This document shows positions 34,977-49,188 of a stretch of DNA of 64,000 nt, one piece after another. The DNA is taken from positions 1,963 to 65,962 of the forward strand of contig JAHJIY010000004.1 in assembly GCA_018823175.1 (NCBI GenBank), in the 5' to 3' direction. Source of the DNA: Pseudomonadota bacterium (GTDB lineage Bacteria > Desulfobacterota > Desulfobulbia > Desulfobulbales > JAHJIY01). Both the position numbers and the translations under genes were made by a program. Below the pieces are notes generated by a model. The model had not been told where the DNA came from, did not search any database, and was given only the letters and a program-made list of their open reading frames with translations. How positions within the stretch are numbered: position 1 is the stretch's first letter; each line of letters opens with the position of its first letter.

Positions 34977-35121
34977 TAGTGCCTGTCCATAAATGGTCTT
35001 TTTCTCCGATAACGTCGTCGCTTCGTTCTTTGAAAGTGCTCACGGACACCAGTCCGCTGCGCTTTTCAAAATCCTAGCTCCTCGTTCTCGAGTAAAAATC
35101 CTCATTTCAGGACAGACACTA
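34977..35121. repeat. Long imperfect palindrome of 145 bp (REP/MITE-like element or structured RNA)
   Basis: The termini TAGTGCCTGTCC (34977-34988) and GGACAGACACTA (35110-35121) are inverted. Complementarity continues inward (AAATG, TTTTTCTCCGATAACG / CGTTCTCGAGTAAAAA, TTTGAAAGTGC / GCGCTTTTCAAA). It shares GCTTCGTT...GCTCACG strings with the element at 1037-1145. Confidence 0.6.
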
Positions 35122-35472
35122 ACTATCCCCCCCTAAAATGGAAGAACAAAGAATCATGAAACTGGCTAATATTTAGTAACGAAGTTATCGGAGAATAGGC
35201 CAATTACTAACAGTCACTGGTTAATCTGATGATAAATCAAGATATGAACCCAATAAACCATTAAATATTGACGATAAACAGGTCAATCATCCACAATTAA
35301 TTTCATGAAATATCAAGTTAATCTCAAGATATTCCAGCTGAGATATCACCAACCCATCACGACCAAACCAATGCCTGCCTGTATTTCAACCAGATTTCAC
35401 CCATAGATCAACATATAAAAAATAATTTCATATTTTATGTGCGACAAAATGTCACATATGTTATAGCTTTTC

Positions 35473-35536
35473 ATACGACATTGTGGTACCTTCTTATGCG
35501 ACAATGTGGTACTTCCTGATACGACACTGTGGTACC
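35473..35536 (+). promoter_or_regulatory. Three direct repeats of ATRCGACAnTGTGGTACY spaced exactly 23 bp apart (putative transcription-factor operator array)
   Basis: The repeats are ATACGACATTGTGGTACC (35473-35490), ATGCGACAATGTGGTACT (35496-35513) and ATACGACACTGTGGTACC (35519-35536), with CGACA starting at 35476, 35499 and 35522. A related site, TGCGACAAAATGTCACA, lies at 35440-35456. Confidence 0.6.
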
Positions 35537-35716
35537 AGGATCAGATTAATCAAATTTAAATGTTTAAAGTCAAGGGCAGTTTAATTTCAACGGGGAGGTG
35601 ACATGGATAAAAACAAGGCAGCGGGCAGTATCTATGGCAAATTTCGGCAAGATAGGAAGCGGTGTTGATCTTCACCTCTCCAGATGAATAATCGAACAAC
35701 TTTTCAAGGAGCAAAG

Positions 35717-38074
35717 ATGAGTAAGAGAAAAAAAACCACCTACAAGATTTTAGCGTTACTCTTATCAGTATTAATGATGAGTTTCACCATGATCAACCTG
35801 CAAGGCTGCGGCAGCGATGATGACGATCCGGTCCCCGTGGTTGATAACGGAGGCGGCGATACCGGCGGCGGAGACACCGGCGGCGATGGCGGCGGCGGAG
35901 CAACCGGGGTAACCACAGCGACAAATGTATTCCTTGATGGCATCCTGCCTGACACCAGATACACTTTTCTTCACGGTTCCACCAGCCCGGATAGTTCAAA
36001 ATTCTTTGTCTATGTTAATGACAATGATACTTCCGGTAAAATTGACATGTACATGTTAGACACCAATAGTGTTACGGCTGCAACCCCTGCCCTTGTTACC
36101 ACCGGCACAGCAACTGCTAGTGTAACCGGCGATGGTTCCGGCCCACAGGGCGCGACCATTTCATTCCGTTCTACCTGGGAAAACTCCGGCAGAAACATTT
36201 TGATGGCTGCTGCTGACCGTTTCTTCCTGATTGACGGCACTACCCTTCAACCATTAAACGGCGCTAACGGCGATGCCACTATCGGTGGAACTATCGAAGG
36301 TCAAAATCATGATGCAATGCCTACTGATGATGACCTTTACGCTATTTTGACCTTGCGGACTAAACCAAATGGCAGCAGCGGCAATACAGATGGCGCTATC
36401 CAGCTCTATGACTGTGTCAATAAAACTCCAATTGGTGAGCCTGTATCAGTATGTAACTCATGTCATGGTGATGACCGAGAATCAGTACTTTGTGGTCTTG
36501 ATGGTACCATTACCAACAATAATGATGGAACAGCTCCCGGTTATGGCGGAGCAGGAACCCCAGATACATATAGTGGAACGATCTACGTTGCAGGTCACGG
36601 CGCTCATTTTGCAAAAGTTACCTTTACCCTCGACCCCAACGATACCACGACCCCGTTTAAAAATTTAAGTACTGGCAGAATCAATGTAGCTTCAGCCGGC
36701 AACACCGGCTACCTGCTTCATGATGCTCGCCTGGATGGTACCGATCTCTACTGGTCTACTTACAAACTCGACAGAGATGGTCTCATTCATTACGGTAAAG
36801 TCGATCTGGCCAATGGTAATGCAGTTACCGATATCACCTATGCCCCGGATGTTCGCGCTGCTGGCACCGGATTGGCTCCTGGAACTGGTCCTTATTATTG
36901 TGCCTCTGGTCAGACCAGCGCTTACCATATGCCGATAACGATGACCAATGAAGCATATATCACAGTAATCCCTAAATCCACGGTTACTACTTCCGGCTCA
37001 AATGTCGCGGCGGCCAAATACTCCGGCACCGTTTATGTTGCTGGTCATGGCGCCCATATGGCCAAGGTAACAGTAAATATCGATACCGCCTCAGCTACAC
37101 CAGTTACCGTAAGCACCAGCAAAATCAATGTTGCCTCACCTGGTAACACTGACTATAAACTCCATGACGTCCGTAAGGACGGCGACATTCTTTACTGGTC
37201 AACCTATGGTATTGGCGCCGATGGGAATCTCCATTACGGCACAATCGATCTGGCCAATAATAATGCGGTAACTGACAACACTATTGCTCCAGCAGTCAGA
37301 GGAGGAGTCACCAGTATTGCCGCCGGAACAATGCCATATTACTGCGCTTCCGGTCTATCGGCAACAGCTCACATGCCGATCTCCATGAGCAACGAAGGCT
37401 ATGTCACAGTTATTCCAAAAGACGGTAGCGCGACGAGCCAGGTTTATATGGAAAGCTCCTTGGGCGCCGGCGGTACTGGCGGAGCTAACATCCCGGCTTC
37501 TTACTTTTACTTCCACGGTTCCACCAGTCCGGACCAGAGCAAATTCTTCATGAGCGTTAATGACGCAGGAACTCCGGGTAATTCAAATTTAATGATGTTC
37601 AACACCGATAGCATTGAAGCCGGCACCCCGGAACTGAACACTTCAGTTTCCAACAATCAGGCAACTGTAACCGGTGACGGGACAGGAGCGTATGGTGCAA
37701 CTATCACCTTCCGTTCCAACTGGGCTCCGGGCGCCAAGAAAATCATGCTGTCCGGTGCTGACCGATTCTACGTAATCAATGCTGATACTCTGGCAGTAGA
37801 AAACGGAACAGCCGGTGACAACACTGTTGGTGGTCAAAACCATGACGCCTTATCCACCAGTGATAGCAGATTCGCTCTCTTAACTCTCCGAACCAAACCC
37901 TATGAGGCTGCAGATGCTTCCAACACCAACCAGGACGGTGCAGTACAGCTCTATGATGTGATCAACGGCACTCCGATCGGCGAGCCGGTTTCGATCTGTA
38001 ACCAATGTCATAATGACAACACGATTGAAGCAGTTCTTTGTGGCATCGATGGAGCCTTGACACGTACCGAATAA
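35717..38074 (+). CDS. Novel lipoprotein with A-B-B'-A' internal duplication, two CXXCH heme-c motifs and conserved His/Cys/Met motifs
   Basis: The start is moved to the ATG at 35717, with an AGGAG ribosome-binding site 5 nt upstream. The signal and lipobox are MSKRKKTTYKILALLLSVLMMSFTMINLQGC, followed by a D/G-rich linker. The A domains (about nt 35910-36520 and 37500-38060) each end in PIGEPVS[VI]CN[SQ]CH...VLCG[LI]DG, with CXXCH at 36452-36466 and 37997-38011. The B domains (36568-36985 and 37019-37420) share YSGT[IV]YVAGHGAH, LHD, LYWSTY, HYG, PYYCASG and HMP[IS]. Confidence 0.8.
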   Translation: MSKRKKTTYKILALLLSVLMMSFTMINLQGCGSDDDDPVPVVDNGGGDTGGGDTGGDGGGGATGVTTATNVFLDGILPDTRYTFLHGSTSPDSSKFFVYVNDNDTSGKIDMYMLDTNSVTAATPALVTTGTATASVTGDGSGPQGATISFRSTWENSGRNILMAAADRFFLIDGTTLQPLNGANGDATIGGTIEGQNHDAMPTDDDLYAILTLRTKPNGSSGNTDGAIQLYDCVNKTPIGEPVSVCNSCHGDDRESVLCGLDGTITNNNDGTAPGYGGAGTPDTYSGTIYVAGHGAHFAKVTFTLDPNDTTTPFKNLSTGRINVASAGNTGYLLHDARLDGTDLYWSTYKLDRDGLIHYGKVDLANGNAVTDITYAPDVRAAGTGLAPGTGPYYCASGQTSAYHMPITMTNEAYITVIPKSTVTTSGSNVAAAKYSGTVYVAGHGAHMAKVTVNIDTASATPVTVSTSKINVASPGNTDYKLHDVRKDGDILYWSTYGIGADGNLHYGTIDLANNNAVTDNTIAPAVRGGVTSIAAGTMPYYCASGLSATAHMPISMSNEGYVTVIPKDGSATSQVYMESSLGAGGTGGANIPASYFYFHGSTSPDQSKFFMSVNDAGTPGNSNLMMFNTDSIEAGTPELNTSVSNNQATVTGDGTGAYGATITFRSNWAPGAKKIMLSGADRFYVINADTLAVENGTAGDNTVGGQNHDALSTSDSRFALLTLRTKPYEAADASNTNQDGAVQLYDVINGTPIGEPVSICNQCHNDNTIEAVLCGIDGALTRTE

Positions 38075-38099: not shown

Positions 38100-38135
38100 A
38101 AAGAGGGACGGCATTTTGCCGCCCCTCTTTTTTTT
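38100..38135 (+). terminator. Rho-independent terminator after the heme lipoprotein gene
   Basis: AGAGGGACGGC-atttt-GCCGCCCCTCT (10 of 11 positions paired) followed by T8, 26 nt after the stop codon. Confidence 0.85.
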
Positions 38136-38224: not shown

Positions 38225-39430
38225 ATGCCCCTTTTAAAAATTGCCCTTAAAAATATCGGTCGCAAACGGTTCCGCAGTTTATCCATAATCCTGGCCGGCA
38301 CCCTGGCCTGTGGCCTGGTATTTACCGGAGCGATAACCCTGAAGTCAGTGCAGGATGGCCTAAAACAAGGGATGGCAAGGTTAGGAGCTGATATCATGGT
38401 GGTTCCAACCGGCTACGAGGCCAAAGGCAGCAAGATCCTTCTAGGCGGTGAACCCTCGGGCTTTTACATGGATGAACAGATTGAAGGAAAGATTGCAGAA
38501 GTAGACGGCGTTAGCCTAACGTCTCCGCAGCTCTTTATCACTTCTCTGAAAATAATTTGTTGTACCATGCCGACAGTCCAACTGGTTGGGATTGATCCAG
38601 CAACAGATTTCGCTGTAACCCCTTGGTTGAATTTCACAGTTAAAGATAAAGAAGCAAAATTTGATCCAATCACGGTGGGCTCAAATACCCTCTATGCGAC
38701 CGAAGGTATGTATATCTCTTTTTTCGGGAAAAGATTTCGGGTAGCAAGCGCCGCAGCCAAAACCGGTCTTAGATTTATTGATTATTCAGCCTTTATGACC
38801 ATGGATGTGGCGAGAAGTATGATTAATATTTCTCATACCAGTTCAGGAGAATCACTCCAAATCAAGGATGACGAGATATCAGCGGTCATGGTCAAGATTA
38901 ATTCGGATAAAGATGTTTATACCGTAGCCGCCAATATCGAGAAATCAGTACCTGGAGTTAAGACCATTATCAGCCGCAACCTAGTAACCACCATGAGAAA
39001 CGATGTTAAAGCATGCCTGTGGGGAATTGTCGTTGCAGGTATCTTGAGCTGGACCATGACCATTTTTCTGATGGGGTTGGTTTTTGCGATGGTGGTTAAT
39101 GAAAGACGCCGAGAACTTGGTCTACTCCGAGCCATGGGTGCCACCAAAAAAACTATGACCGAACTTATACTTTATGAGGCGGCGGTGCTTTCTGGAATTG
39201 GCAGTATTATCGGAGTTATTGGCGGATGGCTGGCACTAGACCGTTTAAAAATTCTAATTACCCTGGTTTATGGAACAGAGATCCAGTTTTTATGGCCTTC
39301 CCCATCCTTTACCTTTATGACTGCCCTCTGTTGTGGAATGGCCATCATATTCTCCTGCACGGCAACCGCCATCGGCCCCGCTATACGCGGCAGCAAGACT
39401 GAACCTTATGAAGCTATCCGCAAAGGATGA
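38225..39430 (+). CDS. FtsX-like (MacB/LolC-E type) ABC transporter permease, paralog 1
   Basis: 401-aa ORF. The N-terminus LLKIALKNIGRKRFRSLSIILAGTLACGLVF is followed by a periplasmic domain of about 230 aa and three C-terminal TM helices, with NERRRELGLLRAMGATKK (the FtsX signature). A vicinal Cys-Cys lies at 38558-38563. Confidence 0.85.
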   Translation: MPLLKIALKNIGRKRFRSLSIILAGTLACGLVFTGAITLKSVQDGLKQGMARLGADIMVVPTGYEAKGSKILLGGEPSGFYMDEQIEGKIAEVDGVSLTSPQLFITSLKIICCTMPTVQLVGIDPATDFAVTPWLNFTVKDKEAKFDPITVGSNTLYATEGMYISFFGKRFRVASAAAKTGLRFIDYSAFMTMDVARSMINISHTSSGESLQIKDDEISAVMVKINSDKDVYTVAANIEKSVPGVKTIISRNLVTTMRNDVKACLWGIVVAGILSWTMTIFLMGLVFAMVVNERRRELGLLRAMGATKKTMTELILYEAAVLSGIGSIIGVIGGWLALDRLKILITLVYGTEIQFLWPSPSFTFMTALCCGMAIIFSCTATAIGPAIRGSKTEPYEAIRKG

Positions 39431-39454: not shown

Positions 39455-40690
39455 ATGCAAGTAACTATCTCTGATCTGGCCAAGAAAAATATCCGTCGTA
39501 ATTTGTTCAGGAGCATCGCAATTGTTATGGGGGTCGCAGCAGCCACAGGGACCATTTTCTCCGTCTCCACTATAATGCAGTCGGTTAAATCAAGTTTGAC
39601 CCGAAGTGCGGCCCGTCTCGGATCCGACATTATCGTTGTCCCGGAGAAATACGGAAAAGAAGCCAAGGAAGCGATAGAAGAAGGAAAACCGATAGCCTTT
39701 TACATGGCCGGATCAACGCTTGAAAAGATCAAAGAAATCAGGATGTATCATCCTAAATTAAAAAAAAATATAAAGGTGGTGGATCTCGCTTCATCGCAAC
39801 TTTTCAAGCTTTCTTCCAAAACCGGCTGTTGTGATGTGGTCGGCAAATTATTAGTAGGTTTTGACCCAAACAATGATTTCAGTATTCTACCATGGTTGAA
39901 AAGTGGCAAAAAAGAAGAAATCAAAAGCAGTGAAATTTTAATCGGAGACAATATCCCGCATCAGGAAAACTTTAAGATTCAGTTGTTCGGCCAAATTTTC
40001 ACCGTTGCCGGCAAGCTTGAGCCCTCAGGCCATGAGTTTTTTGATAACTCAATATTTATGCTCCACTCCGATTTGCAGAATCTGATTTCAAAAACAGCAA
40101 CCCTTTTACCAGATGACCTCAGCTGGGACCAAGAAATAATATCCGCCATTCTGGTCAGGACCAACCCTCTAATCAACACCAGAAGAATAGCCAATCAGAT
40201 TGATCATGACGTTAAAGGCGTAAAGACCATCGTCGCCAAACAGGTACAAACCTCGGTCGGCAAACAGCTTTTCATGCTACTCAAGGCGGTTTTTCTGGCC
40301 GGTGCAGTATTATGGGTAATTGCGTTTCTCCTGATCGCGGTCATTTTCTCGATGATCGTCAATGAAAGAACTCGTGAAATGGGCCTGCTAAAAGCCATGG
40401 GCGCTCGAAGAGGGACCATTTTCCGCCTGACCGTAACCGAGGCATCCCTGCTCTCTTTTGCGGGCGGCAGTCTCGGGATAATATTTGGCGGCACACTTCT
40501 TTTTGTCCTTAAAAGCAATGTTGAGGCCGCCTTTGCTATTCCTTTTCAGTGGCCGAGCTTTCTTAACTTTCTATTGCTGACCTCAACTTGTTTGACCTTG
40601 GGAATTATAACCGGGGTAAGTGCTGCCTTACTGCCTGCGATCCGCTGCAGTGCTCTGGAACCGAGCGTGGCGTTAACCAAGGGGGATTAA
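39455..40690 (+). CDS. FtsX-like (MacB/LolC-E type) ABC transporter permease, paralog 2
   Basis: 411-aa ORF with LAKKNIRRNLFRSIAIVMGVAAATG and NERTREMGLLKAMGARRG. A vicinal Cys-Cys lies at 39827-39832, in the same relative position as in paralog 1 (CC x8-9 LVG[IF]DP). A GAGGA ribosome-binding site is present. Confidence 0.85.
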   Translation: MQVTISDLAKKNIRRNLFRSIAIVMGVAAATGTIFSVSTIMQSVKSSLTRSAARLGSDIIVVPEKYGKEAKEAIEEGKPIAFYMAGSTLEKIKEIRMYHPKLKKNIKVVDLASSQLFKLSSKTGCCDVVGKLLVGFDPNNDFSILPWLKSGKKEEIKSSEILIGDNIPHQENFKIQLFGQIFTVAGKLEPSGHEFFDNSIFMLHSDLQNLISKTATLLPDDLSWDQEIISAILVRTNPLINTRRIANQIDHDVKGVKTIVAKQVQTSVGKQLFMLLKAVFLAGAVLWVIAFLLIAVIFSMIVNERTREMGLLKAMGARRGTIFRLTVTEASLLSFAGGSLGIIFGGTLLFVLKSNVEAAFAIPFQWPSFLNFLLLTSTCLTLGIITGVSAALLPAIRCSALEPSVALTKGD

Positions 40691-40697
40691 ACAAAGA

Positions 40698-41987
40698 ATG
40701 AGGGGAAAGACTGATCAAAAACCTGGCCTCCGTTTCCTACCCTTTGACCGTCTCCGCTATCTGATCATAATATTAGTGGTTTTACAGCATGCCGCTAATA
40801 GTTACGGCAACCTGGTGCCATGGTGGTATGTTCGCGACCCTTATCCTTCTTTAAATCCGTTTTTTGATTTGTTCCGACAATTGCCGGATATCATTATGAT
40901 GCCGGTTCTCTTTTTTTTAGCCGGCTTTTTCGCCTTACCATCTTTGAGAGAAAAAGGATTGGGAGCATTCCTTTGGGATAAATGTACCCGACTGCTTTGG
41001 CCCGGGTTTATCTGTGTCACCCTGATAGCACCTATAATCAACTATATCTACCATGTTTCGCGATCAGACATTTACTCGCAAAATGGCTATTTCTTCTACT
41101 GGTTCTCTTTTATAAGGGATTCAGGACGGTTCCATATTGGCTTTATTGAATCAATGGACCAGTTCAGTCATAATTTTCTCTGGTTTGTTTCCCTGCTTTT
41201 TTTCTTTTTCCTGTTTTTTGCAGTAGGCCATACGATCAAAGGAAAGCTAGCATCAAGAAAATTGTCTACTTTCAACCAGCGCTTACAGATGAATAACGAA
41301 GCAATTAACCATGACCCAAAATCTTTCGGCTTGCAAAGGTGTTATTCGTGGATAATTATCCTAAGTGTCGGTTTCATCAGCTCTTTGAGTTATTATATAA
41401 TAAATTCATTTATGCCTTATGAACGCTGGATAATTATCTGCAATGTCATCCAGTTTCAATCCCCAAGACTGATCGTCTATATTTCTTATTTCAGCCTGGG
41501 AATTTATGCCTATACACAACAATGGTTTTTAAAAAAATCTCCCCCTGGCAAACTTCTTTTCTGGGGCAGTTTAACTGTTGTTCTCATCTCCATATACTTT
41601 TCTCTCCAACAGCAATTTATCAATGGCATCAACCAACCTGGAGTTAGCTTATTGTACAGTTTCACCCGTTACTTTTTATGCCTAAGTTTCTTGTTTTTCT
41701 TACTTTTACTAACCTATCGCTATTTTGCACAACCGTCGAAAAAACATAATTTTCTCGCAGAACATTCATATTATGTTTACCTGACCCACCTTCTATTAGT
41801 TGTCTCGTCTCAGTTATTTTTCAGTCAATTTCACGGACTCTTAACGATAATCAAGTTCTGTTGTGTTTTTAGTTTTTCAATCATCTGCAGTTATCTTATT
41901 AGTTGTTTTCTTCTTAAACCATTTCCCCGAGTTTCCTTGATTATCATATTTGTTTCCTGTCTAGTCTTGGGCGCTGCAACCTCTTAG
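40698..41987 (+). CDS. Acyltransferase family 3 (OafA/OpgC-like) integral membrane protein
   Basis: 429-aa ORF starting 7 nt after the preceding stop. FLPFDRLRYLIIILVVLQHAANSY is the typical N-terminal motif. There are about 10 hydrophobic helices. Confidence 0.75.
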   Translation: MRGKTDQKPGLRFLPFDRLRYLIIILVVLQHAANSYGNLVPWWYVRDPYPSLNPFFDLFRQLPDIIMMPVLFFLAGFFALPSLREKGLGAFLWDKCTRLLWPGFICVTLIAPIINYIYHVSRSDIYSQNGYFFYWFSFIRDSGRFHIGFIESMDQFSHNFLWFVSLLFFFFLFFAVGHTIKGKLASRKLSTFNQRLQMNNEAINHDPKSFGLQRCYSWIIILSVGFISSLSYYIINSFMPYERWIIICNVIQFQSPRLIVYISYFSLGIYAYTQQWFLKKSPPGKLLFWGSLTVVLISIYFSLQQQFINGINQPGVSLLYSFTRYFLCLSFLFFLLLLTYRYFAQPSKKHNFLAEHSYYVYLTHLLLVVSSQLFFSQFHGLLTIIKFCCVFSFSIICSYLISCFLLKPFPRVSLIIIFVSCLVLGAATS

Positions 41988-42096: not shown

Positions 42097-42585
42097 TCAT
42101 TTCTTCTGAATTTTCTTACGCTTTCCCCTGACACAACGACAATAATATTTGTTCTTCCATTGCATAGCCACTAATCTATCATCCGAACTTTTCACCGAAG
42201 AATCATCGCCAAAATTCACATAGAACGACATCTGGTCATAATAAGGTAATTCAGTACCCGTCCAATATCTTGCGGACTTTGTCTTTGGGAATAAATCTTG
42301 AGTAATGGCAGGGTATTTATCCCCCTCGTTTAGAATGGTTCGAAGTTCGTAATGATTTGGCAGACGCCAATCATCATACCCTGCATACGAAAGGTTAAGA
42401 CAATAATCTTTGGCCGCTTTCCAATCACGAGTAATGTTATCGTCAACGCGTTGCCAAACCAACCCCGTCAAATTACTGGTCAGGATCAAATCGTTCTTCA
42501 CAACATAATCACCAGCGACTGCCGGGAGAGATAATAAAAGAGAAAGGACTACAGCCGAAACCCCCAAAAACAATTTTCTTTTCAT
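42097..42585 (-). CDS. Secreted DUF1566 (Lcl C-terminal domain) protein
   Basis: The start is moved to the ATG at 42585 (MKRKLFLGVSAVVLSLLLSLPAVAGD). TGLVWQRVDD...WKAAKDYCLNLSYAGYDDWRLPNHYELRTIL is the DUF1566 core. Confidence 0.7.
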   Translation of the reverse strand: MKRKLFLGVSAVVLSLLLSLPAVAGDYVVKNDLILTSNLTGLVWQRVDDNITRDWKAAKDYCLNLSYAGYDDWRLPNHYELRTILNEGDKYPAITQDLFPKTKSARYWTGTELPYYDQMSFYVNFGDDSSVKSSDDRLVAMQWKNKYYCRCVRGKRKKIQKK

Positions 42586-42779
42586 AGTTAAATCCTGAAA
42601 AAGGTAATAAAAAAGTTTAAGCATTCAGACATTATCAAAGCATTAAAAAAACATTAATTTTTAACCTAATTTTAGGGATTAGCTAACCCACAGCACTATA
42701 CCAGCAGAACATAATATTTTGCTCTTTTCAATCGTAAAAAATTGTCAAAAAACCCATACAGGGAAGGGAGATCATCGTA

Positions 42780-43322
42780 ATGAAAAGAAATGCGGTTCTG
42801 GTTATTTTATTGCTGACAATCTTATTTACCAACGGTTGCGGCACCGAACTCATCCAAAGAGCCGAATCAAATTATCTTGCCCGGGACTATCAGCCAGCGG
42901 CCCAGCTGTTTGACCTTTATCTGACCGATCATCCTGACGCATTTGTGGCCAGAAGGAGGTTAGGCCACGCATTATTAAAAACCGGCCACCCCCGGGAAGC
43001 CGCTTTTCAATTTGAAAAAGTCATCGCCAGCCACCCCGGCGATTCATTATCCTACCTCTATCTCGGACTGACCTACCTGCACCTGGCTGATTATCCAAAA
43101 ACCATGGCGGCCTGGCAGCAATACGAAGCCATCGGCAAGCCACTGATCATCAGCGAAGTCAACCGTCAAACACCTCTGATCACTGAGGCCATCCAAAAGA
43201 ACTTACCTGACGATGGCTTAAATGATCTGGCCAAAAAAATCGAATCGGCCATTGAACAGGCAATAAGCGCCGATCAACTGCGAAACGATTACAACAGATC
43301 CCGTCTTGGAGAGTGCGGCTGA
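42780..43322 (+). CDS. TPR-repeat protein, probable lipoprotein
   Basis: 180-aa ORF with a GGGAAGGGAG ribosome-binding site. The N-terminus is MKRNAVLVILLLTILFTNGC. TPR-like units are YLARDYQPAAQLFDLYL, RRRLGHALLKTGHPREAAFQFEKVI and YLYLGLTYLHLADYPKTMAAWQQY. Confidence 0.65.
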   Translation: MKRNAVLVILLLTILFTNGCGTELIQRAESNYLARDYQPAAQLFDLYLTDHPDAFVARRRLGHALLKTGHPREAAFQFEKVIASHPGDSLSYLYLGLTYLHLADYPKTMAAWQQYEAIGKPLIISEVNRQTPLITEAIQKNLPDDGLNDLAKKIESAIEQAISADQLRNDYNRSRLGECG

Positions 43323-43381
43323 TGACCATTTTGAAGCCGGTCCGGCTTCAAAAAAAAAAGGTAAAATAACTTTCATTTTCT

Positions 43382-43425
43382 ACCACACTGTGGTATTTAC
43401 AATTTTTATCGCACTTTGGTAATTT
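43382..43425 (+). promoter_or_regulatory. Two copies of the ACAnTGTGGTA-type motif overlapping a candidate sigma70 promoter upstream of the porin gene
   Basis: ACCACACTGTGGTAT (43382-43396) matches the 35.5-kb repeat at 11 of 13 core positions. TCGCACTTTGGTAAT (43409-43423) is a weaker copy. TTTACA (43396-43401), an 18-nt spacer and TAATTT (43420-43425) form a possible -35/-10 pair. Confidence 0.4.
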
Positions 43426-43539
43426 TGCTCGGAAATCGAGCATGTTTAGCCTTAAGACCCTTTACAAGTAATTAAAGCATTGCGTGAACAAACGGGAGGA
43501 AACAAATTTATGAATCCAAAAACAAACGGGGAAATTGGT

Positions 43540-44766
43540 ATGAAGATTCGAAAAATCGGTAAATATTGCGCTCCTTTTCTGGCACTTGCCATGCTGGCCT
43601 CTCCATTAGCAAATGAAGCCCAGGCCGGGCCAAGTATTGAGTTTGGAGATGACGGTCAAGGTATCCTGAAGATTGATTACAAGGCCCAGTTCCAGGTTGT
43701 TTCCCGTGACACCGGTTCCGGCGAAACCGGCGACGATGCCACCAATACCATGGGCTTCCGGCGCAATCGTCTGGCGTTTATCGGGGCCTGGGGCGATATG
43801 TACGGCATATATGTCCAGACCGATTACTTTGAAAATACCGCAATCTCAACCTTAGGTCAAAATACCACCTCATACGATCCATCCGATGATTACTTTTCCC
43901 TGATCGACGCTCAGATTCGGATAAAGTTCAACGACATGGCCCATCTGCGGGTCGGCAAGTTTAAAGCTAACCTCACCCGGGAAAACCTGGAAGACTGTTA
44001 TCAACCACTGACCCTTGATCGTTCGAAATTCCTGGCCGAGCCCTTTGTCATTTCCAGAGATATCGGCATGAGCCTATGGGGCAATCTGGTTGACAATAAA
44101 GTACAATACAAGATTGACTTACTGGAAGGCAAGCCAGCCAAACAAGTTTCGGGTAACACTGGTGATACCCTGGGCTCCAATTTCCGCTACTCCGGCCGGG
44201 TCCATGTTTCCCTGCTGGAACCTGAATCAGGTTATGGCTATCGCGGCACTTACCTCGGCACCAAAAAGGTGTTGACCATCGGCGCCGCCATGCAGCATGA
44301 AGACGATCTGGTTTACAAAAATGACAATAAGGACGGCGCCGAAAGCTATAACGCCTACACCGTTGATCTCTTTACCGAAATTCCGGTTCCCGCCGTGGGA
44401 ACCTTTACCCTGTCGGCCGCTTACGCCGATTTTGACTTTGGTGACCGGGGCCTCAACAGTGACAATACCCTCGGCAATGATGCTGCCTCCAACAAAGGCG
44501 GCGAAAGAGATGGCTATTACGTCAAAGCCGGCTATATGCTGCCCACCCTGCCGCTGCAGATCTTCGGCCGGATGGAGACCTGGACCTTTGCCGAACTTAA
44601 CGGCATTATGGACCATGAACTCAACTGGATGGGAGTTGGCGCCAACTACTACGTCAGAAACCAGGACGTAAAAGTAACTCTGGAATATTCCACCGTGCAG
44701 TTTGACGACCGGGATACCGCTGATGATATTTCAACCATCGTGGCCCAGCTTCAGTTTATGTACTAA
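43540..44766 (+). CDS. Outer-membrane beta-barrel porin
   Basis: The ATG at 43540 gives MKIRKIGKYCAPFLALAMLASPLANEAQA; the ATG at 43510 is an alternative start. Amphipathic beta-strand patterns alternate throughout. The C-terminus ...VAQLQFMY ends in an aromatic residue, which is the OMP beta-signal. Confidence 0.7.
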   Translation: MKIRKIGKYCAPFLALAMLASPLANEAQAGPSIEFGDDGQGILKIDYKAQFQVVSRDTGSGETGDDATNTMGFRRNRLAFIGAWGDMYGIYVQTDYFENTAISTLGQNTTSYDPSDDYFSLIDAQIRIKFNDMAHLRVGKFKANLTRENLEDCYQPLTLDRSKFLAEPFVISRDIGMSLWGNLVDNKVQYKIDLLEGKPAKQVSGNTGDTLGSNFRYSGRVHVSLLEPESGYGYRGTYLGTKKVLTIGAAMQHEDDLVYKNDNKDGAESYNAYTVDLFTEIPVPAVGTFTLSAAYADFDFGDRGLNSDNTLGNDAASNKGGERDGYYVKAGYMLPTLPLQIFGRMETWTFAELNGIMDHELNWMGVGANYYVRNQDVKVTLEYSTVQFDDRDTADDISTIVAQLQFMY

Positions 44767-44792
44767 AAAATCAAGCTAGACAGTCCCCAAAA

Positions 44793-44831
44793 GGCGCGGT
44801 ATACAAAGATTGTATGCCACGCCTTTTTTTT
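44793..44831 (+). terminator. Rho-independent terminator after the porin gene
   Basis: GGCGCGGTATACAA-aga-TTGTATGCCACGCC followed by T8. Confidence 0.8.
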
Positions 44832-44925
44832 GTAAATTATTCAGACTACCTTTATCCATAACCAATCCGGAATCCATAACCAATCCGGCTCCGGCGAACC
44901 CGGCTGACCATAAGGGGAAGGCCCG

Positions 44926-46728
44926 ATGCCAGGCCGACTTATTTCAAGAAAAAGGTCCCACAAAGGTAAAATGAGCAGGTCGATTCTTCAAAAACCACGC
45001 CAGAAATCAAACCATAGTCTAATCCACAGCGAAGATGCTATCTCGCCGGCCTCATTCTTGAAAAACCATTATTTTGCATATCTTCTGGCCGCGCTTTTCT
45101 CTCTGCTCCTCCCGATAATTCTCTATCACTACCGGACGCTGGACAACAATGCCCTCTGCCGCTGGCCCTGGGTCTTTGCCGACGGCCCCCCCTTAAAATC
45201 ATGGGCCTTGCTGCTGATAATTACCTTGGTCGCCTTTTTCCTGGCCAGTCGTTCCTGGCCTAAAAACAAACCGGTTTTTCTCTTTCTTTCCGCCTTAATT
45301 ATCGGCGTCTCCTTGTGGGGCGAACCGGAGATTATCATGGATGCCTCGCGATATTTCACCCAGGCCAAATATCTTGAGGTTAACGGAATAAGCGCCTTCT
45401 GGCATGGCTGGGGAAATGAATTATCCGCCTGGACCGACCTCCCCCTGGTCCCTTTTATTTATGGACTTGTCCTCACCGTCTTTGGTGAAACGAGAATATT
45501 TATTCAGGCCCTTACCACCTTGTTTTTTGTCGGTTCCGTATGGTTCACCTATCTGCTGGCCCGAGATCTGTGGGATGAGGAAACAGGCTTGCTGGCCGGG
45601 CTGCTTCTTCTTTGCTATCCTTATCTACTGCTCAATATCCCGCTGATGATGGTTGATCTGCCCACCATGTTTTTTATGGTCCTGACTGTTTACACCTTCT
45701 GCCTGGCCCTGCAGACCGACACTCCCTTGCCGATTCTGGCAGCCGCTCTGGCGATATTCTGCACCTTCTGGGCCAAATATTCGACCTGGATTCTGCTCAG
45801 TATCCTACCGGTGATCTTTCTGGTCTACTACAAATCAGATCCTCAAAAAACCAGACGTCGGGCCTTTTATACGATAACGATTACCCTTGTCCTGATTCTC
45901 CCGCTGGTCATTAGTCTTTGGGAGGTGATCAATGACCAGATCAGACTGCTTCTTGACTACCAGCGCCCCGGTCTACAAAAATGGTCCGAAGGATTTATCT
46001 CCACTTTTTTCTTTCAGATCCATCCCCTGGTTACTCTCTCAGCCTTATTTGGGACCTGGATTGCCCTGCGCAAAAAGGACCGAAAATTCATTATTCCTCT
46101 CTATCTCATAATGGTGCTGGTCCTTGTCCTGCAGGTCAAGAGGATCCGCTACCTGATGCCGATTTTTCCGATGCTGGCGATCACTGCTGCATACGGTCTA
46201 CGCCAACTCGCCGATCAACGGTTGCAAAGATTCCTGATGCTTTCCACTCTGGGCGCCGCCCTGATTTTGACCTTCGGCTCATATCTTCCCTTTACCGGGC
46301 AACTCAGCGCCGCCAATCTCAAAAATGGCGGCCGCTTTCTTGATACCATAAGTCCGACCAGCATCGCGATTTATACCGTCCCGCAAAAGGCAAAAGATGT
46401 TAATCTCAAGATTAATGTCCCGATTCTGGATTTGTTTACGCAAAAAAAGCTATACTTACTGAGCGACCCGGCCGAGCAGAGTCCTGAAGTTAACCAGACC
46501 TCATCCTTCCGGTTCAGCTGGGAACAGGATCTGCCTGATTTCTATGATCCTCTGCCCGCCAGACCGGCAAACGGACCGGACCCGCTGGTCATTATCTCAT
46601 CAGGCCCCTTGACTAAACTGCCGCCCTTGATCCGGGAAAAGATGGCCGGACACCGTCAGGTTAAATCATTTAACCGGAGTAGCGGACTCTTCACCTATAA
46701 AACATTCGTGACCATTTATTATGACTGA
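44926..46728 (+). CDS. ArnT/PMT-like (GT39/GT83-type) polyprenyl-phosphate-sugar-dependent glycosyltransferase, polytopic membrane protein
   Basis: 600-aa ORF with an AAGGGGAAGG ribosome-binding site and more than 10 TM helices. DASRYFTQAKYL...PLVPFIYGLVLTVFGETRIFIQALTTLFFVGSVWFTYLLARDLW matches the N-terminal catalytic loop and helices of the ArnT family. The C-terminal soluble domain is about 130 aa. Confidence 0.6.
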   Translation: MPGRLISRKRSHKGKMSRSILQKPRQKSNHSLIHSEDAISPASFLKNHYFAYLLAALFSLLLPIILYHYRTLDNNALCRWPWVFADGPPLKSWALLLIITLVAFFLASRSWPKNKPVFLFLSALIIGVSLWGEPEIIMDASRYFTQAKYLEVNGISAFWHGWGNELSAWTDLPLVPFIYGLVLTVFGETRIFIQALTTLFFVGSVWFTYLLARDLWDEETGLLAGLLLLCYPYLLLNIPLMMVDLPTMFFMVLTVYTFCLALQTDTPLPILAAALAIFCTFWAKYSTWILLSILPVIFLVYYKSDPQKTRRRAFYTITITLVLILPLVISLWEVINDQIRLLLDYQRPGLQKWSEGFISTFFFQIHPLVTLSALFGTWIALRKKDRKFIIPLYLIMVLVLVLQVKRIRYLMPIFPMLAITAAYGLRQLADQRLQRFLMLSTLGAALILTFGSYLPFTGQLSAANLKNGGRFLDTISPTSIAIYTVPQKAKDVNLKINVPILDLFTQKKLYLLSDPAEQSPEVNQTSSFRFSWEQDLPDFYDPLPARPANGPDPLVIISSGPLTKLPPLIREKMAGHRQVKSFNRSSGLFTYKTFVTIYYD

Positions 46729-48181: not shown

Positions 48182-49182
48182 TGACGGCAGGAATTTCAGT
48201 CATCATTCCGGTCCATAACGGCGGTGACGATTTCAGGCAATGTCTTGAAGCTCTGGCAACCAGCCAACCGCCCCCGGAGGAGATTATCGTGGTGGCCGAT
48301 GGCGAAAGCGACGGAAGCTGGCGTCTGGCTTATGATTTCCAGGTCAGGGTTATTAACCTGCCCACCCCGTCCGGCCCGGCTCACGCCCGCAATCTCGGGG
48401 CCCAAACCGCAACCGGTGAAATTCTGCTATTTATCGATGCCGATGTTCTGGTCCGCCCGGATACCGTGGCTATGGTCCGGGACTATTTCCATAATCATCC
48501 GGCAGTCAGCGCAATTATGGGTTCATACGATGACACCCCGACTGCGACCAATTTTCTTTCTCAATACCGGAACCTTTTTCATCACTATACCCACCAGACC
48601 GGCGCTATTGAGGCCTCGACTTTCTGGACCGGATGCGGCGCAATCCGGGCTGATGTATTTAGAAAAATGGGCGGCTTTGACCAGAACAGATGCCGACCTC
48701 TGAGCAGGGCCTGCCCGGGAACCATTGAGGATGTCGAACTGGGCTACCGCTTAAAAGAGAGCGGCCATTCAATTCATCTTTTAAAAGAGCTGCAGGTCAA
48801 ACATCTGAAACGCTGGGACTTAAGATCAATAATCCGCACGGATTTTTTCTACCGGGCCCTGCCCTGGACGGAATTACTCTTGACCAGGGGCCGGATGATC
48901 AATGACCTCAATCTTAAGAAACAAACTCGTCTCAGTATTGTTTTGATCTTCAGCTTAATCACCTGTATTCTTGCCCTGCTTGTCGGGACGCCAACCGGAA
49001 CAGTCGCCATTATCCTGAGCTTGCTCTTGCTCCTGATTAACTGGAGATGCTATAGTTTCTTTTATCAAAAAAGAGGACTTCGGTTTGCCGCCCTGGTCAT
49101 TCCCTGGCACTGGCTTTATTTCTTTTACAGCGGCATTGCCTATATCTACGGGTCCATCCTGTTCAGACTGAAGAAAAGGTAA
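48181..49182 (+). CDS. GT2-family glycosyltransferase with C-terminal TM helices (ArnC/DPM-synthase-like architecture)
   Basis: There is a TGATG overlap with the upstream gene. ISVIIPVHNGGDDFRQCLEAL, IIVVADGESDGS and LFIDADV (the DxD motif) are present. Two C-terminal hydrophobic helices follow. Confidence 0.8.
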   Translation: MTAGISVIIPVHNGGDDFRQCLEALATSQPPPEEIIVVADGESDGSWRLAYDFQVRVINLPTPSGPAHARNLGAQTATGEILLFIDADVLVRPDTVAMVRDYFHNHPAVSAIMGSYDDTPTATNFLSQYRNLFHHYTHQTGAIEASTFWTGCGAIRADVFRKMGGFDQNRCRPLSRACPGTIEDVELGYRLKESGHSIHLLKELQVKHLKRWDLRSIIRTDFFYRALPWTELLLTRGRMINDLNLKKQTRLSIVLIFSLITCILALLVGTPTGTVAIILSLLLLLINWRCYSFFYQKRGLRFAALVIPWHWLYFFYSGIAYIYGSILFRLKKR

Positions 49183-49188
49183 ATCAAT

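What the first reader, a model, noticed from the sequence alone, without database searches (positions are those of the whole stretch)
35717..38074. Novel lipoprotein with mirrored A-B-B'-A' architecture, two heme-c motifs and two putative His/Cys/Met metal sites
Seen in sequence: a lipobox and an Asp/Gly linker are followed by four domains. The A domains are about 45-50% identical to each other. Each ends in PIGEPVS[VI]CN[SQ]CH x7-9 VLCG[LI]DG, which is a CXXCH heme-c site plus two further Cys. The B domains are about 55-60% identical and conserve GHGAH, LHD, HYG, YYCASG and HMP. That gives five His, one Cys and one Met per domain, a ligand set reminiscent of copper or other metal centres. I do not recognise this combination as any characterised family. 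Inference: this is a surface or periplasmic redox metalloenzyme with pseudo-twofold symmetry.
Basis: partly seen in the sequence, partly recalled or inferred. Interest (0 to 1): 0.78.

Follow-up and report, generated by a model that had tools for sequence, protein, structure and literature searches.

The report
Uncharacterised haem-c beta-propeller lipoprotein, tandem and permuted
The gene encodes an exported lipoprotein made of two six-bladed beta-propellers, the second a circular permutation of the first, each carrying a haem-c attachment motif; it belongs to an undescribed family that almost always sits beside a special ABC-transporter permease and often beside copper-chaperone genes, so it may be a new periplasmic haem/copper redox enzyme.

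Summary
The ORF at 35717-38074 (+) encodes 785 aa with lipobox LQGC and an Asp/Gly linker. The repeats run in the order A-B-B'-A' (A1/A2 53% identical, B1/B2 63%), and there are two CXXCH motifs.

The "four domains" are really two units. A+B together fold as one six-bladed beta-propeller (AlphaFold pLDDT 87, pTM 0.89-0.90 for each half). The second unit is a circular permutant (B-A).

No Pfam, NCBIfam or PDB family claims the protein. A profile search finds 192 cluster representatives, all unnamed, in four layouts: B-A singles (the commonest), A-B singles, A-B-A-B and A-B-B-A.

Across the family the invariant residues are CXXCH, H86, H198-D199, C259, H297, H335-D336, C395 and M409. C259 and C395 are lost together.

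In 55 of 72 evaluable loci an FtsX-type permease gene follows directly on the same strand. Those permeases carry a conserved periplasmic Cys-Cys pair. An ABC ATPase is present in 55 of 80 loci, and PCuAC or NosL copper chaperones in 31 of 80.

Best reading: a new family of haem-c propeller oxidoreductases with a His/Cys centre, probably copper, served by a dedicated ABC system. The substrate is unknown.

The parts
35717..35809 (+). Signal peptide ending in lipobox LQGC (Cys31, the lipidation site)
   Evidence: Read from the sequence. An SD-like GGAG lies 7 nt upstream of the ATG. Most homologs have a comparable [LFI]-x-G-C lipobox.
35810..35899 (+). Asp/Gly/Thr-rich low-complexity tether (aa 32-61)
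   Evidence: Read from the sequence. It is not part of the conserved unit.
35900..36991 (+). Propeller unit 1 in A-B order (aa 62-425). A1 is about aa 62-267 (blades 1-3 plus the CXXCH loop). B1 is about aa 283-425 (blades 4-6). The N-terminal strand TNVF closes blade 6.
   Evidence: AlphaFold2 of aa 58-427 gave pLDDT 87.0, pTM 0.89 and 24 strands. Foldseek returned only beta-propellers. Domain boundaries come from hmmsearch.
36452..36466 (+). CXXCH motif 1 (C246-N-S-C-H250), the probable haem-c attachment site, in the loop between blades 3 and 4
   Evidence: Invariant family-wide: C246 79/79, C249 78/79, H250 79/79. It forms a short helix at 189-193 of the model.
36491..36493 (+). Cys259 (LCGLDG), at the start of the first strand of blade 4; coupled to Cys395 (36899-36901)
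   Evidence: C259 is conserved in 74/79 domains and C395 in 78/81. All 3 units that lack C395 also lack C259 (Fisher p 6.7e-5 over 72 units).
36992..38071 (+). Propeller unit 2 in B-A order, a circular permutant (aa 426-785). B2 is aa 426-575 and A2 is aa 576-785. The C-terminal strand LCGIDGALTRT closes the first blade.
   Evidence: AlphaFold2 with an alignment of 25 single-unit B-A relatives gave pLDDT 87.6 and pTM 0.90. Foldseek returned only beta-propellers.
37997..38011 (+). CXXCH motif 2 (C761-N-Q-C-H765), followed by Cys775 (38039-38041)
38225..39430 (+). FtsX/MacB-type ABC permease 1 (401 aa), with a periplasmic Cys112-Cys113 pair at 38558-38563
   Evidence: Pfam FtsX E 2.5e-17. Such a permease follows the propeller gene directly in 55/72 loci. 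The Cys-Cys pair is conserved in 67/76 associated permeases. Coordinates.
39455..40690 (+). FtsX/MacB-type ABC permease 2 (411 aa), with a periplasmic Cys125-Cys126 pair at 39827-39832
   Evidence: Pfam FtsX E 2.6e-17 and MacB_PCD E 4e-7. The Cys-Cys pair is at the homologous position.

Best explanation
The gene encodes an outer-face (periplasmic or surface) lipoprotein built from two copies of a roughly 360-residue catalytic unit. The units belong to an undescribed protein family.

Each unit is a six-bladed beta-propeller of the YVTN/lactonase-like class. A CXXCH motif sits in the loop between blades 3 and 4 and most likely carries one covalently bound haem c. The first strands and top-face loops of the blades contribute an invariant set of residues: H86, H198/D199, C259, H297, H335/D336, C395 and M409. 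H358 is conserved in most members.

I infer that these residues line one site on the top face, at the central channel and next to the haem. I further infer that the site binds a thiophilic metal, most probably copper. In this reading the unit is a small-molecule oxidoreductase, with haem c as the electron entry or exit point.

The gene is functionally tied to the FtsX/MacB-type ABC permease(s) encoded directly downstream. Their periplasmic domains carry a conserved Cys-Cys pair. I propose that this ABC system, together with the PCuAC or NosL chaperones found in many loci, loads or services the metal site. The analogy is NosL-NosDFY loading NosZ.

Shown here: the repeats, the fold, the two permutations, the conservation and co-loss pattern, and the gene linkage.

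Inferred: haem occupancy, the spatial clustering of the residues, copper as the metal, and the direction and purpose of the ABC coupling.

Unknown: the substrate. The host taxa suggest an inorganic N or S compound.
For: Architecture and fold:
- Both halves gave confident all-beta models (pLDDT 87.0/87.6, pTM 0.89/0.90).
- Both matched only propellers in the PDB. The best TM was to six-bladed strictosidine synthase. The top hits for unit 2 were lactonase-type propellers.

Family:
- 192 representatives at E<=1e-3, of which 61 at E<=1e-30.
- Layouts among 77 proteins examined: BA 43, AB 10, ABAB 11, ABBA 3.
- None has a Pfam domain over the unit or a name.

Haem:
- CXXCH is invariant even in members that have lost other conserved residues.
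- The proteins carry signal peptides or lipoboxes.
- CcsA/ResB-like genes lie directly upstream in L002.

Coupled site:
- P0017 loses H86, C259 and C395 together. P0058 loses H86, C259, H335, C395 and M409. P0053 loses D199, C259, H335 and C395.
- C259/C395 co-loss gives Fisher p 6.7e-5.
- In the DSSP strings these residues sit at the start of the first strand of blades 1, 3, 4, 5 and 6, or in B-C loops.

Copper:
- PCuAC lies directly upstream on the same strand in 15 loci, at a median distance of 171 bp.
- NosL is present in 14 loci, and PCuAC or NosL in 31 of 80.
- A TlpA-like redoxin is present in 10 loci, and a CusF-like gene in L003.
- H294 is replaced by Met in 16 of 81 domains. His and Met are both common Cu(I) ligands (my own knowledge).

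ABC link:
- FtsX lies immediately downstream on the same strand in 55 of 72 evaluable loci, with a median gap of 101 bp. An ABC ATPase is present in 55 of 80 loci.
- The periplasmic Cys-Cys pair is conserved in 67 of 76 permeases.
- The NosL to NosDFY to NosZ relay is summarised in PMC13068155 and PMC6530538.
Against: - No cofactor was observed, and no model coordinates were available. The claim that the conserved residues cluster rests on my reading of strand order, not on measured distances.
- The 64-kb window itself has no PCuAC, NosL, redoxin or ABC ATPase homolog. 49 of 80 loci show no copper chaperone within 10 kb.
- Joint loss of C259 and C395 is also the classic signature of a structural disulfide.
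- A weak terminator-like hairpin (38109-38121) lies between the lipoprotein gene and the first FtsX gene.
- One clade (L035, L037, L038, L042-44, L079) has the propeller gene with no FtsX neighbour.
- Foldseek TM-scores are only 0.4-0.6 to any solved propeller, so no functional analogy comes from structure.
Confidence: 0.5

Rival explanations
1. It is a sulfur-compound oxidoreductase with no copper. The haem c is His/Cys(persulfide)-ligated, or works with a redox-active Cys259/Cys395 pair, as in SoxAX, TsdA or DsrJ-type cytochromes. It would act on thiosulfate, polysulfide or sulfide at the cell surface.
For: Two invariant Cys lie near the haem motif and are lost together. The hosts are mainly sulfur-cycling lineages: Desulfurivibrionaceae, Desulfobulbales, Thermodesulfovibrionales, Ca. 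Sulfobium and Thiotrichales. Rhodanese and a YeeE/YedE-type Sulf_transp gene lie directly upstream in L003, and a Sulf_transp gene lies about 9.5 kb upstream, at the edge of the locus, in L002.
Against: Sulfur genes are adjacent in only a few loci. The recurrent neighbours are copper chaperones and FtsX-ABC. Four to five invariant His plus two Asp are more than a His/Cys haem pocket needs. There is no sequence similarity to SoxA, TsdA or DsrJ.
Confidence: 0.15
2. It is not an enzyme. It is the periplasmic partner of the FtsX/MacB-type ABC machine, playing the role that EnvC plays for FtsEX or LolA for LolCDE. The role could be copper or other thiophilic-metal trafficking or detoxification, or a sensor or adaptor, with the haem acting as a redox sensor.
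For: The gene pair is very tightly linked (55/72 loci). The FtsX periplasmic domain has a conserved Cys-Cys pair. CusF, PCuAC, NosL and redoxin neighbours fit copper homeostasis as well as they fit enzyme maturation. Type VII ABC systems typically act through periplasmic partners (my own knowledge of FtsEX, LolCDE and MacAB).
Against: A strictly conserved haem motif plus a deep His/Cys/Asp constellation is more typical of a catalytic centre. Some clades lack FtsX altogether and sit next to multihaem cytochromes instead. Tandem duplication of whole units is unusual for an adaptor.
Confidence: 0.2
3. It is an electron-transfer component of an outer-membrane or extracellular electron conduit. The propeller is a scaffold or docking module and there is no catalytic metal site.
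For: It is a lipoprotein with a long flexible tether. A Porin_O_P gene is conserved nearby in the window's clade. Multihaem cytochrome genes are adjacent in 13 of 80 loci.
Against: There is only one haem per roughly 360 residues, which is too sparse for a conduit. This reading does not explain the invariant His/Cys/Asp set, its coordinated loss, or the copper-chaperone neighbours.
Confidence: 0.08
4. It is a divergent nitrous-oxide reductase, a relative of clade III lactonase-type L-NosZ in which haem c replaces CuA.
For: Some family members and peripheral relatives give weak hits to NCBIfam NF052460 L-NosZ (24.8-48.9 bits). The taxon range overlaps the one reported for clade III nosZ: Nitrospirota, Desulfobacterota, Myxococcota and Pseudomonadota (against PMC13477213). 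NosL and PCuAC are neighbours. The top Foldseek hits for unit 2 are lactonase-type propellers.
Against: The window protein gives no L-NosZ hit at E<=1. The best family score is 25 bits against a cutoff of 700, and two members map the same region to different parts of the model, which indicates generic blade similarity. There is no cupredoxin/CuA domain. There are six blades, not seven. Only 4-5 invariant non-haem His plus 2 Cys are present, not seven His. There are no Pfam nos_propeller hits.
Confidence: 0.07

Closest known systems
Nitrous-oxide reductase with its maturation relay (NosZ clades I-III including lactonase-type L-NosZ; NosL, NosDFY)
   Same: Both are periplasmic beta-propeller proteins whose innermost strands carry conserved His. 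Both have copper-chaperone genes (NosL, PCuAC) and an ABC transporter encoded alongside. L-NosZ is the only named family that gives any sequence signal to relatives. The host phyla overlap.
   Different: This family has six blades rather than seven and no CuA cupredoxin domain. A CXXCH motif is embedded in a blade-connecting loop instead. Two invariant Cys and about 5 His replace the seven His of CuZ. The ABC partner is FtsX/MacB type with a periplasmic Cys-Cys pair, not NosFY plus NosD. Scores are 25 bits or less against a cutoff of 700, and nothing for the window protein.
Haem-c-bearing propeller enzymes (cytochrome cd1 nitrite reductase/NirN, hydrazine synthase subunits, quinohaemoprotein dehydrogenases)
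   Same: They combine a beta-propeller with c-type haem in a periplasmic redox protein. NirN appears among the Foldseek hits. Peripheral relatives weakly hit hydrazine synthase beta and the QH-AmDH beta subunit.
   Different: In those enzymes the haem c sits in a separate cytochrome domain or subunit, and the propeller has 7-8 blades and binds d1 haem or PQQ, or has no cofactor. Here the haem motif lies inside the propeller chain between blades 3 and 4. There is no significant Pfam Cytochrom_D1 match (1 of 23 members at E 0.004).
Type VII ABC systems with periplasmic partners (FtsEX-EnvC, LolCDE-LolA, MacAB, and the Cj1660-1665 ABC module of the Campylobacter P19/Ftr1 iron system)
   Same: The neighbouring permeases have the FtsX C-terminal domain and the MacB-like periplasmic core, and they pair with a dedicated periplasmic protein. 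The recurrent FtsX pair, ATPase, redoxin and FtrD-like (PF10080) genes resemble the Campylobacter module listed in PMC6338021 (the comparison is my own recollection).
   Different: Similarity to LolF, MacB and YtrF is only remote (E 1e-6). The conserved periplasmic Cys-Cys pair is, to my knowledge, not a feature of those systems. The partner is a haem propeller, not a hydrolase activator, a lipoprotein carrier or P19.
Copper-centre propeller enzymes outside NosZ (thiocyanate dehydrogenase; methanethiol oxidase MtoX/SBP56)
   Same: They are propeller scaffolds with a His-rich metal site at the central channel that act on small S/N compounds. MtoX is weakly hit by peripheral relatives.
   Different: There is no detectable sequence relationship to the window protein. 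Those enzymes have no haem and seven blades. This comparison rests on my own knowledge, not on a test here.

Membership tests
c-type cytochrome (covalent haem c) | CXXCH haem-attachment motif in an exported polypeptide | tested here: met
   There are two CXXCH motifs and a lipoprotein signal peptide. The motif is invariant in 79/79 A domains, with one member using a CX4CH variant.
c-type cytochrome (covalent haem c) | Haem actually bound; a maturation system (Ccm or CcsBA) present in the organism | not testable with these tools
   No maturation genes were looked for in the window. CcsA/ResB-like genes lie directly upstream of the homolog in L002. Biochemistry is needed.
Beta-propeller fold (YVTN/lactonase-like superfamily) | Closed ring of four-stranded antiparallel blades | tested here: met
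   AlphaFold2 pTM was 0.89 and 0.90, with 24-25 strands per unit. More than 600 PDB propellers matched at E<=1e-3. The blade count of six is my reading of the DSSP strings.
Clade III lactonase-type N2O reductase (NCBIfam NF052460 L-NosZ) | Score at or above the curated cutoff (700 bits) over the 480-position model | tested here: not met
   The window protein gave no hit at E<=1. Among family members the best scores were 24.8-24.9 bits on short, inconsistent stretches.
Clade III lactonase-type N2O reductase (NCBIfam NF052460 L-NosZ) | CuA site/cupredoxin domain and seven CuZ histidines (as I recall for NosZ; the primary paper, He et al. 2025, was not readable here) | tested here: not met
   No cupredoxin or COX2 Pfam hit. 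The unit is entirely propeller. Only H86, H198, H297 and H335 are invariant, with H358 in 69/81 domains.
Canonical NosZ (clades I and II) | Pfam nos_propeller or NCBIfam NosZ models | tested here: not met
   No hits at E<=1. No NosZ chain appeared in the PDB profile search at E<=10.
Cytochrome cd1 nitrite reductase / NirN / NirF | Pfam Cytochrom_D1 (eight-bladed d1 domain) above the gathering score | tested here: not met
   Window protein: none. One of 23 units hit at E 0.004 and P0045 at 12 bits, against a cutoff of 25.5.
Bacterial lipoprotein | Signal peptide with a lipobox and invariant Cys | tested here: met
   MSKRKK...MINLQG-C31-GSDD. The same feature is present in most homologs. No dedicated predictor was run.
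MacB/FtsX type VII ABC transporter (the neighbouring genes) | FtsX C-terminal four-helix domain, a large periplasmic domain between TM1 and TM2, and a partner ABC ATPase | tested here: inconclusive
   The FtsX domain is present in both proteins (63 bits each), and MacB_PCD in the second. No ABC ATPase is found anywhere in the 64-kb window, although 55/80 related loci have one and the closest relative's locus (L001) has one next to the pair.

The most novel reading that the evidence does not exclude
This family is a previously unrecognised class of periplasmic metalloenzyme. A six-bladed propeller holds a new His/Cys-ligated copper (or copper-sulfur) centre and is wired to an in-chain haem c. 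The centre is metallated by its own FtsX-type ABC relay through a periplasmic Cys-Cys hand-off. The enzyme catalyses a respiratory or detoxifying conversion of a small N or S compound in uncultured Nitrospirota, Desulfobulbales and Anaeromyxobacter. N2O, sulfide/polysulfide and thiocyanate are the obvious candidate substrates.
Probability: 0.3. Interest if true: 0.9.

Novelty: new variant of a known kind. Interest (0 to 1): 0.72.

Why it matters
Periplasmic propeller metalloenzymes such as NosZ, cd1 nitrite reductase, hydrazine synthase and thiocyanate dehydrogenase carry out key steps of the N and S cycles. The recent recognition of lactonase-type NosZ showed that whole enzyme clades of this type were overlooked.

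This family has 192 representatives at 50% identity and is known only from metagenome-assembled genomes. It occurs in abundant sediment and groundwater lineages and has no annotation at all. It comes with a conserved, testable gene module: a haem propeller, a Cys-Cys FtsX permease, an ATPase, and often PCuAC or NosL.

If it is an enzyme, it adds an unaccounted reaction to these organisms. It would also add a second, mechanistically different example of ABC-driven cofactor loading in the periplasm.

It is a clean natural case of circular permutation too. Both permutants occur as single genes, as tandems, and fused head-to-tail in one chain.

Tried and rejected
- Known-family assignment failed. 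Pfam, NCBIfam and PDB phmmer on the whole protein, and a PDB profile search with the unit alignment, gave only noise or single WD40-like blade matches.
- Foldseek on both models returned only generic propellers at TM 0.4-0.6. No enzyme stood out.
- I considered membership of L-NosZ seriously after the NF052460 hits and rejected it. The scores are tiny and inconsistent, there is no CuA domain, and the blade and His counts are wrong.
- The primary L-NosZ paper (Nature 2025, doi 10.1038/s41586-025-09401-4) is not held. I could not compare against real L-NosZ sequences.
- I rejected a Cys4 (rubredoxin- or zinc-like) site made of C246, C249, C259 and C395. Members that lose C259 and C395 keep CXXCH intact, His included.
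- I rejected an assembly artefact or chimera. The repeat copies are only 53-63% identical, and the layout recurs in independent assemblies.
- Fusion of an A-B gene with a distant B-A gene is unlikely. A2 and B2 are closest to the tandem clade (55-64% identity), not to the B-A singles.
- I searched the window for the missing ABC ATPase and for PCuAC, NosL, redoxin and FtrD-like genes. None was found.
- Rfam on the 770-bp upstream region gave nothing.
- Literature searches for this gene combination found nothing relevant.
- No model coordinates are exposed by the tools, so I could not measure residue distances.
Full report
**1. What is in the sequence**

The ORF spans 35684-38074 on the + strand. 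The ATG at 35717 has a GGAG 7 nt upstream. It gives 785 aa, identical to the public MAG protein P0001, which is annotated 'hypothetical protein'.

The N-terminus is a lipoprotein signal peptide ending in LQG-C31. An Asp/Gly/Thr-rich tether follows, to about residue 61.

BLASTP of the pieces against each other gave these results:
- A1 (about 62-267) against A2 (576-785): 53% identity, E 1e-68.
- B1 (283-425) against B2 (426-575): 63% identity, E 3e-58.
- A against B: no significant similarity.

There are two CXXCH motifs, at 246-250 and 761-765. Each is followed 8-9 residues later by a Cys in the motif LCG[LI]DG.

**2. The true unit is A+B, a six-bladed propeller, and the second unit is circularly permuted**

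A word-indexed search found only 19 relatives. HMM mapping of A and B onto them showed three layouts:
- A-B in single-unit proteins (P0016-P0019).
- (A-B)x2 in most.
- A-B-B-A only in the window protein and its two closest relatives (P0002 and P0003, 63% identical, from independent assemblies).

AlphaFold2 on residues 58-427 with an alignment of 23 A-B units gave pLDDT 87.0 and pTM 0.89. The model has 24 beta-strands and almost no helix. I read the strand list as six four-stranded blades:
- A supplies blades 1-3.
- The CXXCH forms a short helix in the loop between blades 3 and 4.
- B supplies blades 4-6.
- The N-terminal strand (TNVF) completes blade 6.

The blade count is my reading of the DSSP string. 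Coordinates are not exposed by the tools.

Foldseek against the PDB returned over 700 propellers at E<=1e-3 and nothing else. These were WD40 proteins, YVTN, YncE and six-bladed strictosidine synthase, which gave the best TM (0.53/0.63). Sequence identity was 15% or less.

The exhaustive profile search found 192 representatives at E<=1e-3, 61 of them at E<=1e-30. Among the 77 proteins I examined, the commonest layout is a single B-A unit (43). The others are AB 10, ABAB 11 and ABBA 3.

AlphaFold2 on the window's B2-A2 half, with 25 B-A singles as the alignment, gave pLDDT 87.6 and pTM 0.90. In this model the C-terminal strand LCGIDG... completes the first blade. The break point of the permutation lies between the first and second strands of blade 4.

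So both circular permutants of one propeller exist in nature, and this protein carries one of each. A2 and B2 are closest to the tandem clade (55-64% identity), not to the B-A singles. This suggests the A-B-B-A form arose within the tandem lineage.

**3. Which residues matter**

Conservation over about 80 A domains and about 80 B domains:

| Residue | Conserved in |
|---|---|
| C246 | 79/79 |
| C249 | 78/79 (the exception is a CX4CH variant) |
| H250 | 79/79 |
| H86 | 73/75 |
| H198 | 79/79 |
| D199 | 76/79 |
| C259 | 74/79 |
| G295 | 81/81 |
| H297 | 80/81 |
| H335 | 79/81 |
| D336 | 81/81 |
| R338 | 78/81 |
| H358 | 69/81 |
| C395 | 78/81 |
| M409 | 80/81 |
| K420 | 78/81 |

- H294 is H43/M16/E10/T9.
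- H404 is F38/Y29/H13.
- M405 is M43/I14/L12/F8.

The rare exceptions are informative:
- P0017 lacks H86, C259 and C395 together.
- P0058 lacks H86, C259, H335, C395 and M409.
- P0053 lacks D199, C259, H335 and C395.
- All three keep CXXCH.

Over 72 paired units, every unit that lacks C395 also lacks C259 (Fisher p 6.7e-5). Phylogenetic non-independence was not corrected.

I conclude two things. First, CXXCH has its own function, most simply covalent haem c in an exported protein. Second, the His/Asp/Cys set from both A and B forms one functionally coupled site.

By position in the model's strand list, H86, H198, C259, H335 and C395 sit at the start of the first strand of blades 1, 3, 4, 5 and 6. 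H297, H358 and M409 sit in or just after B-C loops. In propellers generally, both kinds of position lie on the same ('top') face around the central channel, where the blade 3-4 loop carrying the haem motif also lies. This geometry is inference.

**4. Gene neighbourhood**

In the window the gene is followed by two FtsX/MacB-type permeases (38225-39430 and 39455-40690) and then an acyltransferase_3 gene.

A scan of one genome per GTDB species gave 78 loci, all from MAGs:
- Nitrospirota: Thermodesulfovibrionales, Ca. Sulfobium, and Nitrospiraceae including the 'Mn-Nitrospirae-1' assembly.
- Desulfobulbales/Desulfurivibrionaceae.
- Anaeromyxobacter.
- Thiotrichales and other Gamma- and Betaproteobacteria.
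- One Chloroflexota genome and one 'archaeon' bin.

I called ORFs in all loci, clustered them by BLASTP and removed antisense shadows. Results, with counts unless stated:
- An FtsX permease lies immediately downstream on the same strand in 55 of 72 evaluable loci, with a median gap of 101 bp.
- An ABC ATPase is present in 55 of 80 loci.
- A PCuAC copper chaperone is present in 17 loci. In 15 of them it lies directly upstream on the same strand, at a median distance of 171 bp.
- NosL is present in 14 loci. PCuAC or NosL is present in 31 of 80.
- A TlpA-like redoxin is present in 10 loci.
- An FtrD-like (PF10080) protein is present in 12 loci.
- A radical-SAM/SPASM gene is present in 16 loci and a GT2 gene in 21.
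- Multihaem cytochromes are present in 13 loci (Pfam assignments).

The associated permeases share a vicinal Cys-Cys pair in the periplasmic domain, in 67 of 76 sequences. In the window these are C112-C113 and C125-C126. A second FtsX-type permease family found near NosL (cluster 21) lacks the pair in its representative. The permeases are only remotely similar to LolF, MacB and YtrF.

The window itself has no ABC ATPase, PCuAC, NosL or redoxin homolog anywhere in its 64 kb. The closest relative's locus has an ATPase next to the FtsX pair (L001).

One Nitrospiraceae clade has no FtsX neighbour. There the gene sits beside a multihaem cytochrome.

A few gammaproteobacterial loci add rhodanese, a YeeE-type transporter, CusF and redoxin.

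**5. Most likely mechanism**

Shown here:
- An exported, usually lipid-anchored, six-bladed propeller family with an invariant CXXCH.
- A coupled His/Asp/Cys/Met residue set.
- Operon-like linkage to a distinctive FtsX-ABC system.
- Frequent linkage to periplasmic copper chaperones.

Inferred:
- Each unit binds one haem c.
- Each unit has a thiophilic metal centre, most likely copper, at the mouth of the central channel.
- The ABC system, through its Cys-Cys pair and fed by PCuAC or NosL where present, loads or maintains that centre. This parallels the NosL to NosDFY to NosZ relay (summarised in PMC13068155, and PMC6530538).

The His-to-Met swap at position 294 in 16 of 81 domains fits a Cu(I) ligand, though this is weak evidence and rests on my own knowledge. 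The tandem, oppositely permuted units of the window protein would simply double the catalytic modules on one lipid anchor.

I give this composite reading about 0.5. The substrate cannot be named from these data.

**6. Rivals**

- (a) A copper-free sulfur oxidoreductase that uses a His/Cys haem or a redox-active Cys pair: 0.15.
- (b) A non-catalytic periplasmic partner or copper-trafficking component of the ABC machine: 0.2.
- (c) A plain electron-transfer scaffold: 0.08.
- (d) A divergent N2O reductase: 0.07.

The evidence for and against each is in the structured fields.

**7. Comparison with known families**

No Pfam model matches the window protein at E<=1 or the 23 units at E<=0.01, apart from one sub-threshold Cytochrom_D1 hit.

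The only named family with any signal is NCBIfam NF052460, 'clade III lactonase-type nitrous-oxide reductase':
- 3 of 26 B-A members hit it, at about 25 bits against a cutoff of 700.
- Two of those members map the same region to different parts of the model.
- Peripheral YVTN-type proteins at the edge of the profile search hit it at 29-49 bits. They also hit hydrazine synthase beta, PQQ_ABC_repeats, YncE and methanethiol oxidase.

This places the family in the YVTN/lactonase-like propeller superfamily. It is not a member of L-NosZ.

Papers that cite the L-NosZ discovery (He et al., Nature 2025) report that clade III nosZ occurs in Nitrospirota, Nitrospinota, Desulfobacterota, Myxococcota and Pseudomonadota (PMC13477213). 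They report that it lacks canonical nos accessory genes and sits near cytochrome and transporter genes. They also report that NosZ HMMs pick it up (PMC12569097). The taxon overlap with the present family is notable. The present family, however, is invisible to NosZ models and has no CuA domain. I could not read the primary paper.

**8. Novelty and verdict**

The fold and the individual ingredients are known: a propeller, haem c, FtsX-ABC and copper chaperones. The following are, as far as these libraries and searches show, undescribed:
- The family itself.
- The in-chain haem motif between blades.
- The His/Cys constellation.
- The existence of both permutants.
- The dedicated Cys-Cys FtsX partner.

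I rate the finding 'new variant of a known kind' (periplasmic propeller metallo/haemo-enzyme with ABC-assisted maturation). I give it interest 0.72, and a 0.3 chance that it is a genuinely new enzyme class.

Noticed in passing
window 35474-35536 (and 43380-43396): Three direct repeats CGACAnTGTGGTAC, spaced exactly 23 nt apart, lie about 180 bp upstream of the lipoprotein start. With up to 2 mismatches there are 6 matches in the window against 0.9 expected. A related palindromic site, CCACAGTGTGGTA, lies about 90 bp upstream of the Porin_O_P gene (43480). This may be a shared regulator-binding site. The exact motif is absent from all 83 fetched loci.
   Followed up: partly
window 38558-38563 and 39827-39832; 67 of 76 FtsX genes in loci L001-L083: The FtsX-type permeases that accompany this family share a vicinal Cys-Cys pair in the periplasmic domain, plus conserved F-Y-M and D-F..P-W motifs. 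To my knowledge this is not a feature of MacB, LolCE or FtsX.
   Followed up: partly
window 1-64000: No ABC ATPase homolog is found anywhere in the 64-kb window, although two FtsX permeases are present. The closest relative's locus (L001 17377-18042) has the ATPase right after the pair. In the window that position is occupied by an acyltransferase_3 gene (40698-41987), which starts 8 nt after the FtsX2 stop codon.
   Followed up: partly
window 42097-50961; L001, L004, L005, L008, L011, L022, L033: A conserved gene set travels with the propeller gene in Desulfobulbales: Lcl_C lipoprotein, a TPR protein, Porin_O_P, a PMT_2 (ArnT-like) glycosyltransferase, a B12-radical SAM enzyme, GT2 and an amine-oxidase/phytoene-desaturase-like protein. 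Parts of it (B12-rSAM, amine oxidase, GT2) also appear in some Nitrospirota loci. It may be a periplasmic glycosylation or lipid-modification module. Its link to the lipoprotein, whose tether is Asp/Gly/Thr-rich, is unexplained.
   Followed up: partly
L025, L067, L071, L072, L074-L076, L080 and others (clusters 15, 2, 21, 20, 14, 18): A second recurrent module lies upstream of the propeller gene in Desulfobulbales. It comprises an unannotated 335-aa membrane protein with CPFC and SCC motifs, an ABC ATPase, a different FtsX permease, a 100-aa protein, NosL and a TlpA-like redoxin. It looks like a copper-handling ABC system of unknown function.
   Followed up: no
L022, L032-L034, L036, L049, L056, L057, L059, L060, L064, L065 (cluster 13): A conserved protein of about 95 aa with no Pfam match and no signal peptide (MKKKIAVFVRERQAEALRMAVGLTLADDD...) lies directly upstream of the propeller gene in 15 Nitrospirota loci. 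It is often preceded by a radical-SAM/SPASM gene and a GT2 gene.
   Followed up: no
window 34992-35018 / 35179-35205: An imperfect 27-nt inverted repeat (81% complementary, arms 160 nt apart) lies in the long (about 770 bp) AT-rich intergenic region upstream of the gene. There is no Rfam match in this region.
   Followed up: no
P0053 (785 aa), P0017 (1233 aa), P0022 (773 aa): Family units are fused to other modules. P0053 has a caspase-like Peptidase_C14 domain, with the conserved site degenerate. In P0017 a rhodanese domain (precomputed Pfam) precedes the unit, again with C259 and C395 lost. P0022 is a tandem A-B-A-B protein; its only multihaem-like Pfam matches (MtrC/MtrF-like, Paired_CXXCH) are sub-threshold and fall inside the second unit, around its own CXXCH.
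   Followed up: no
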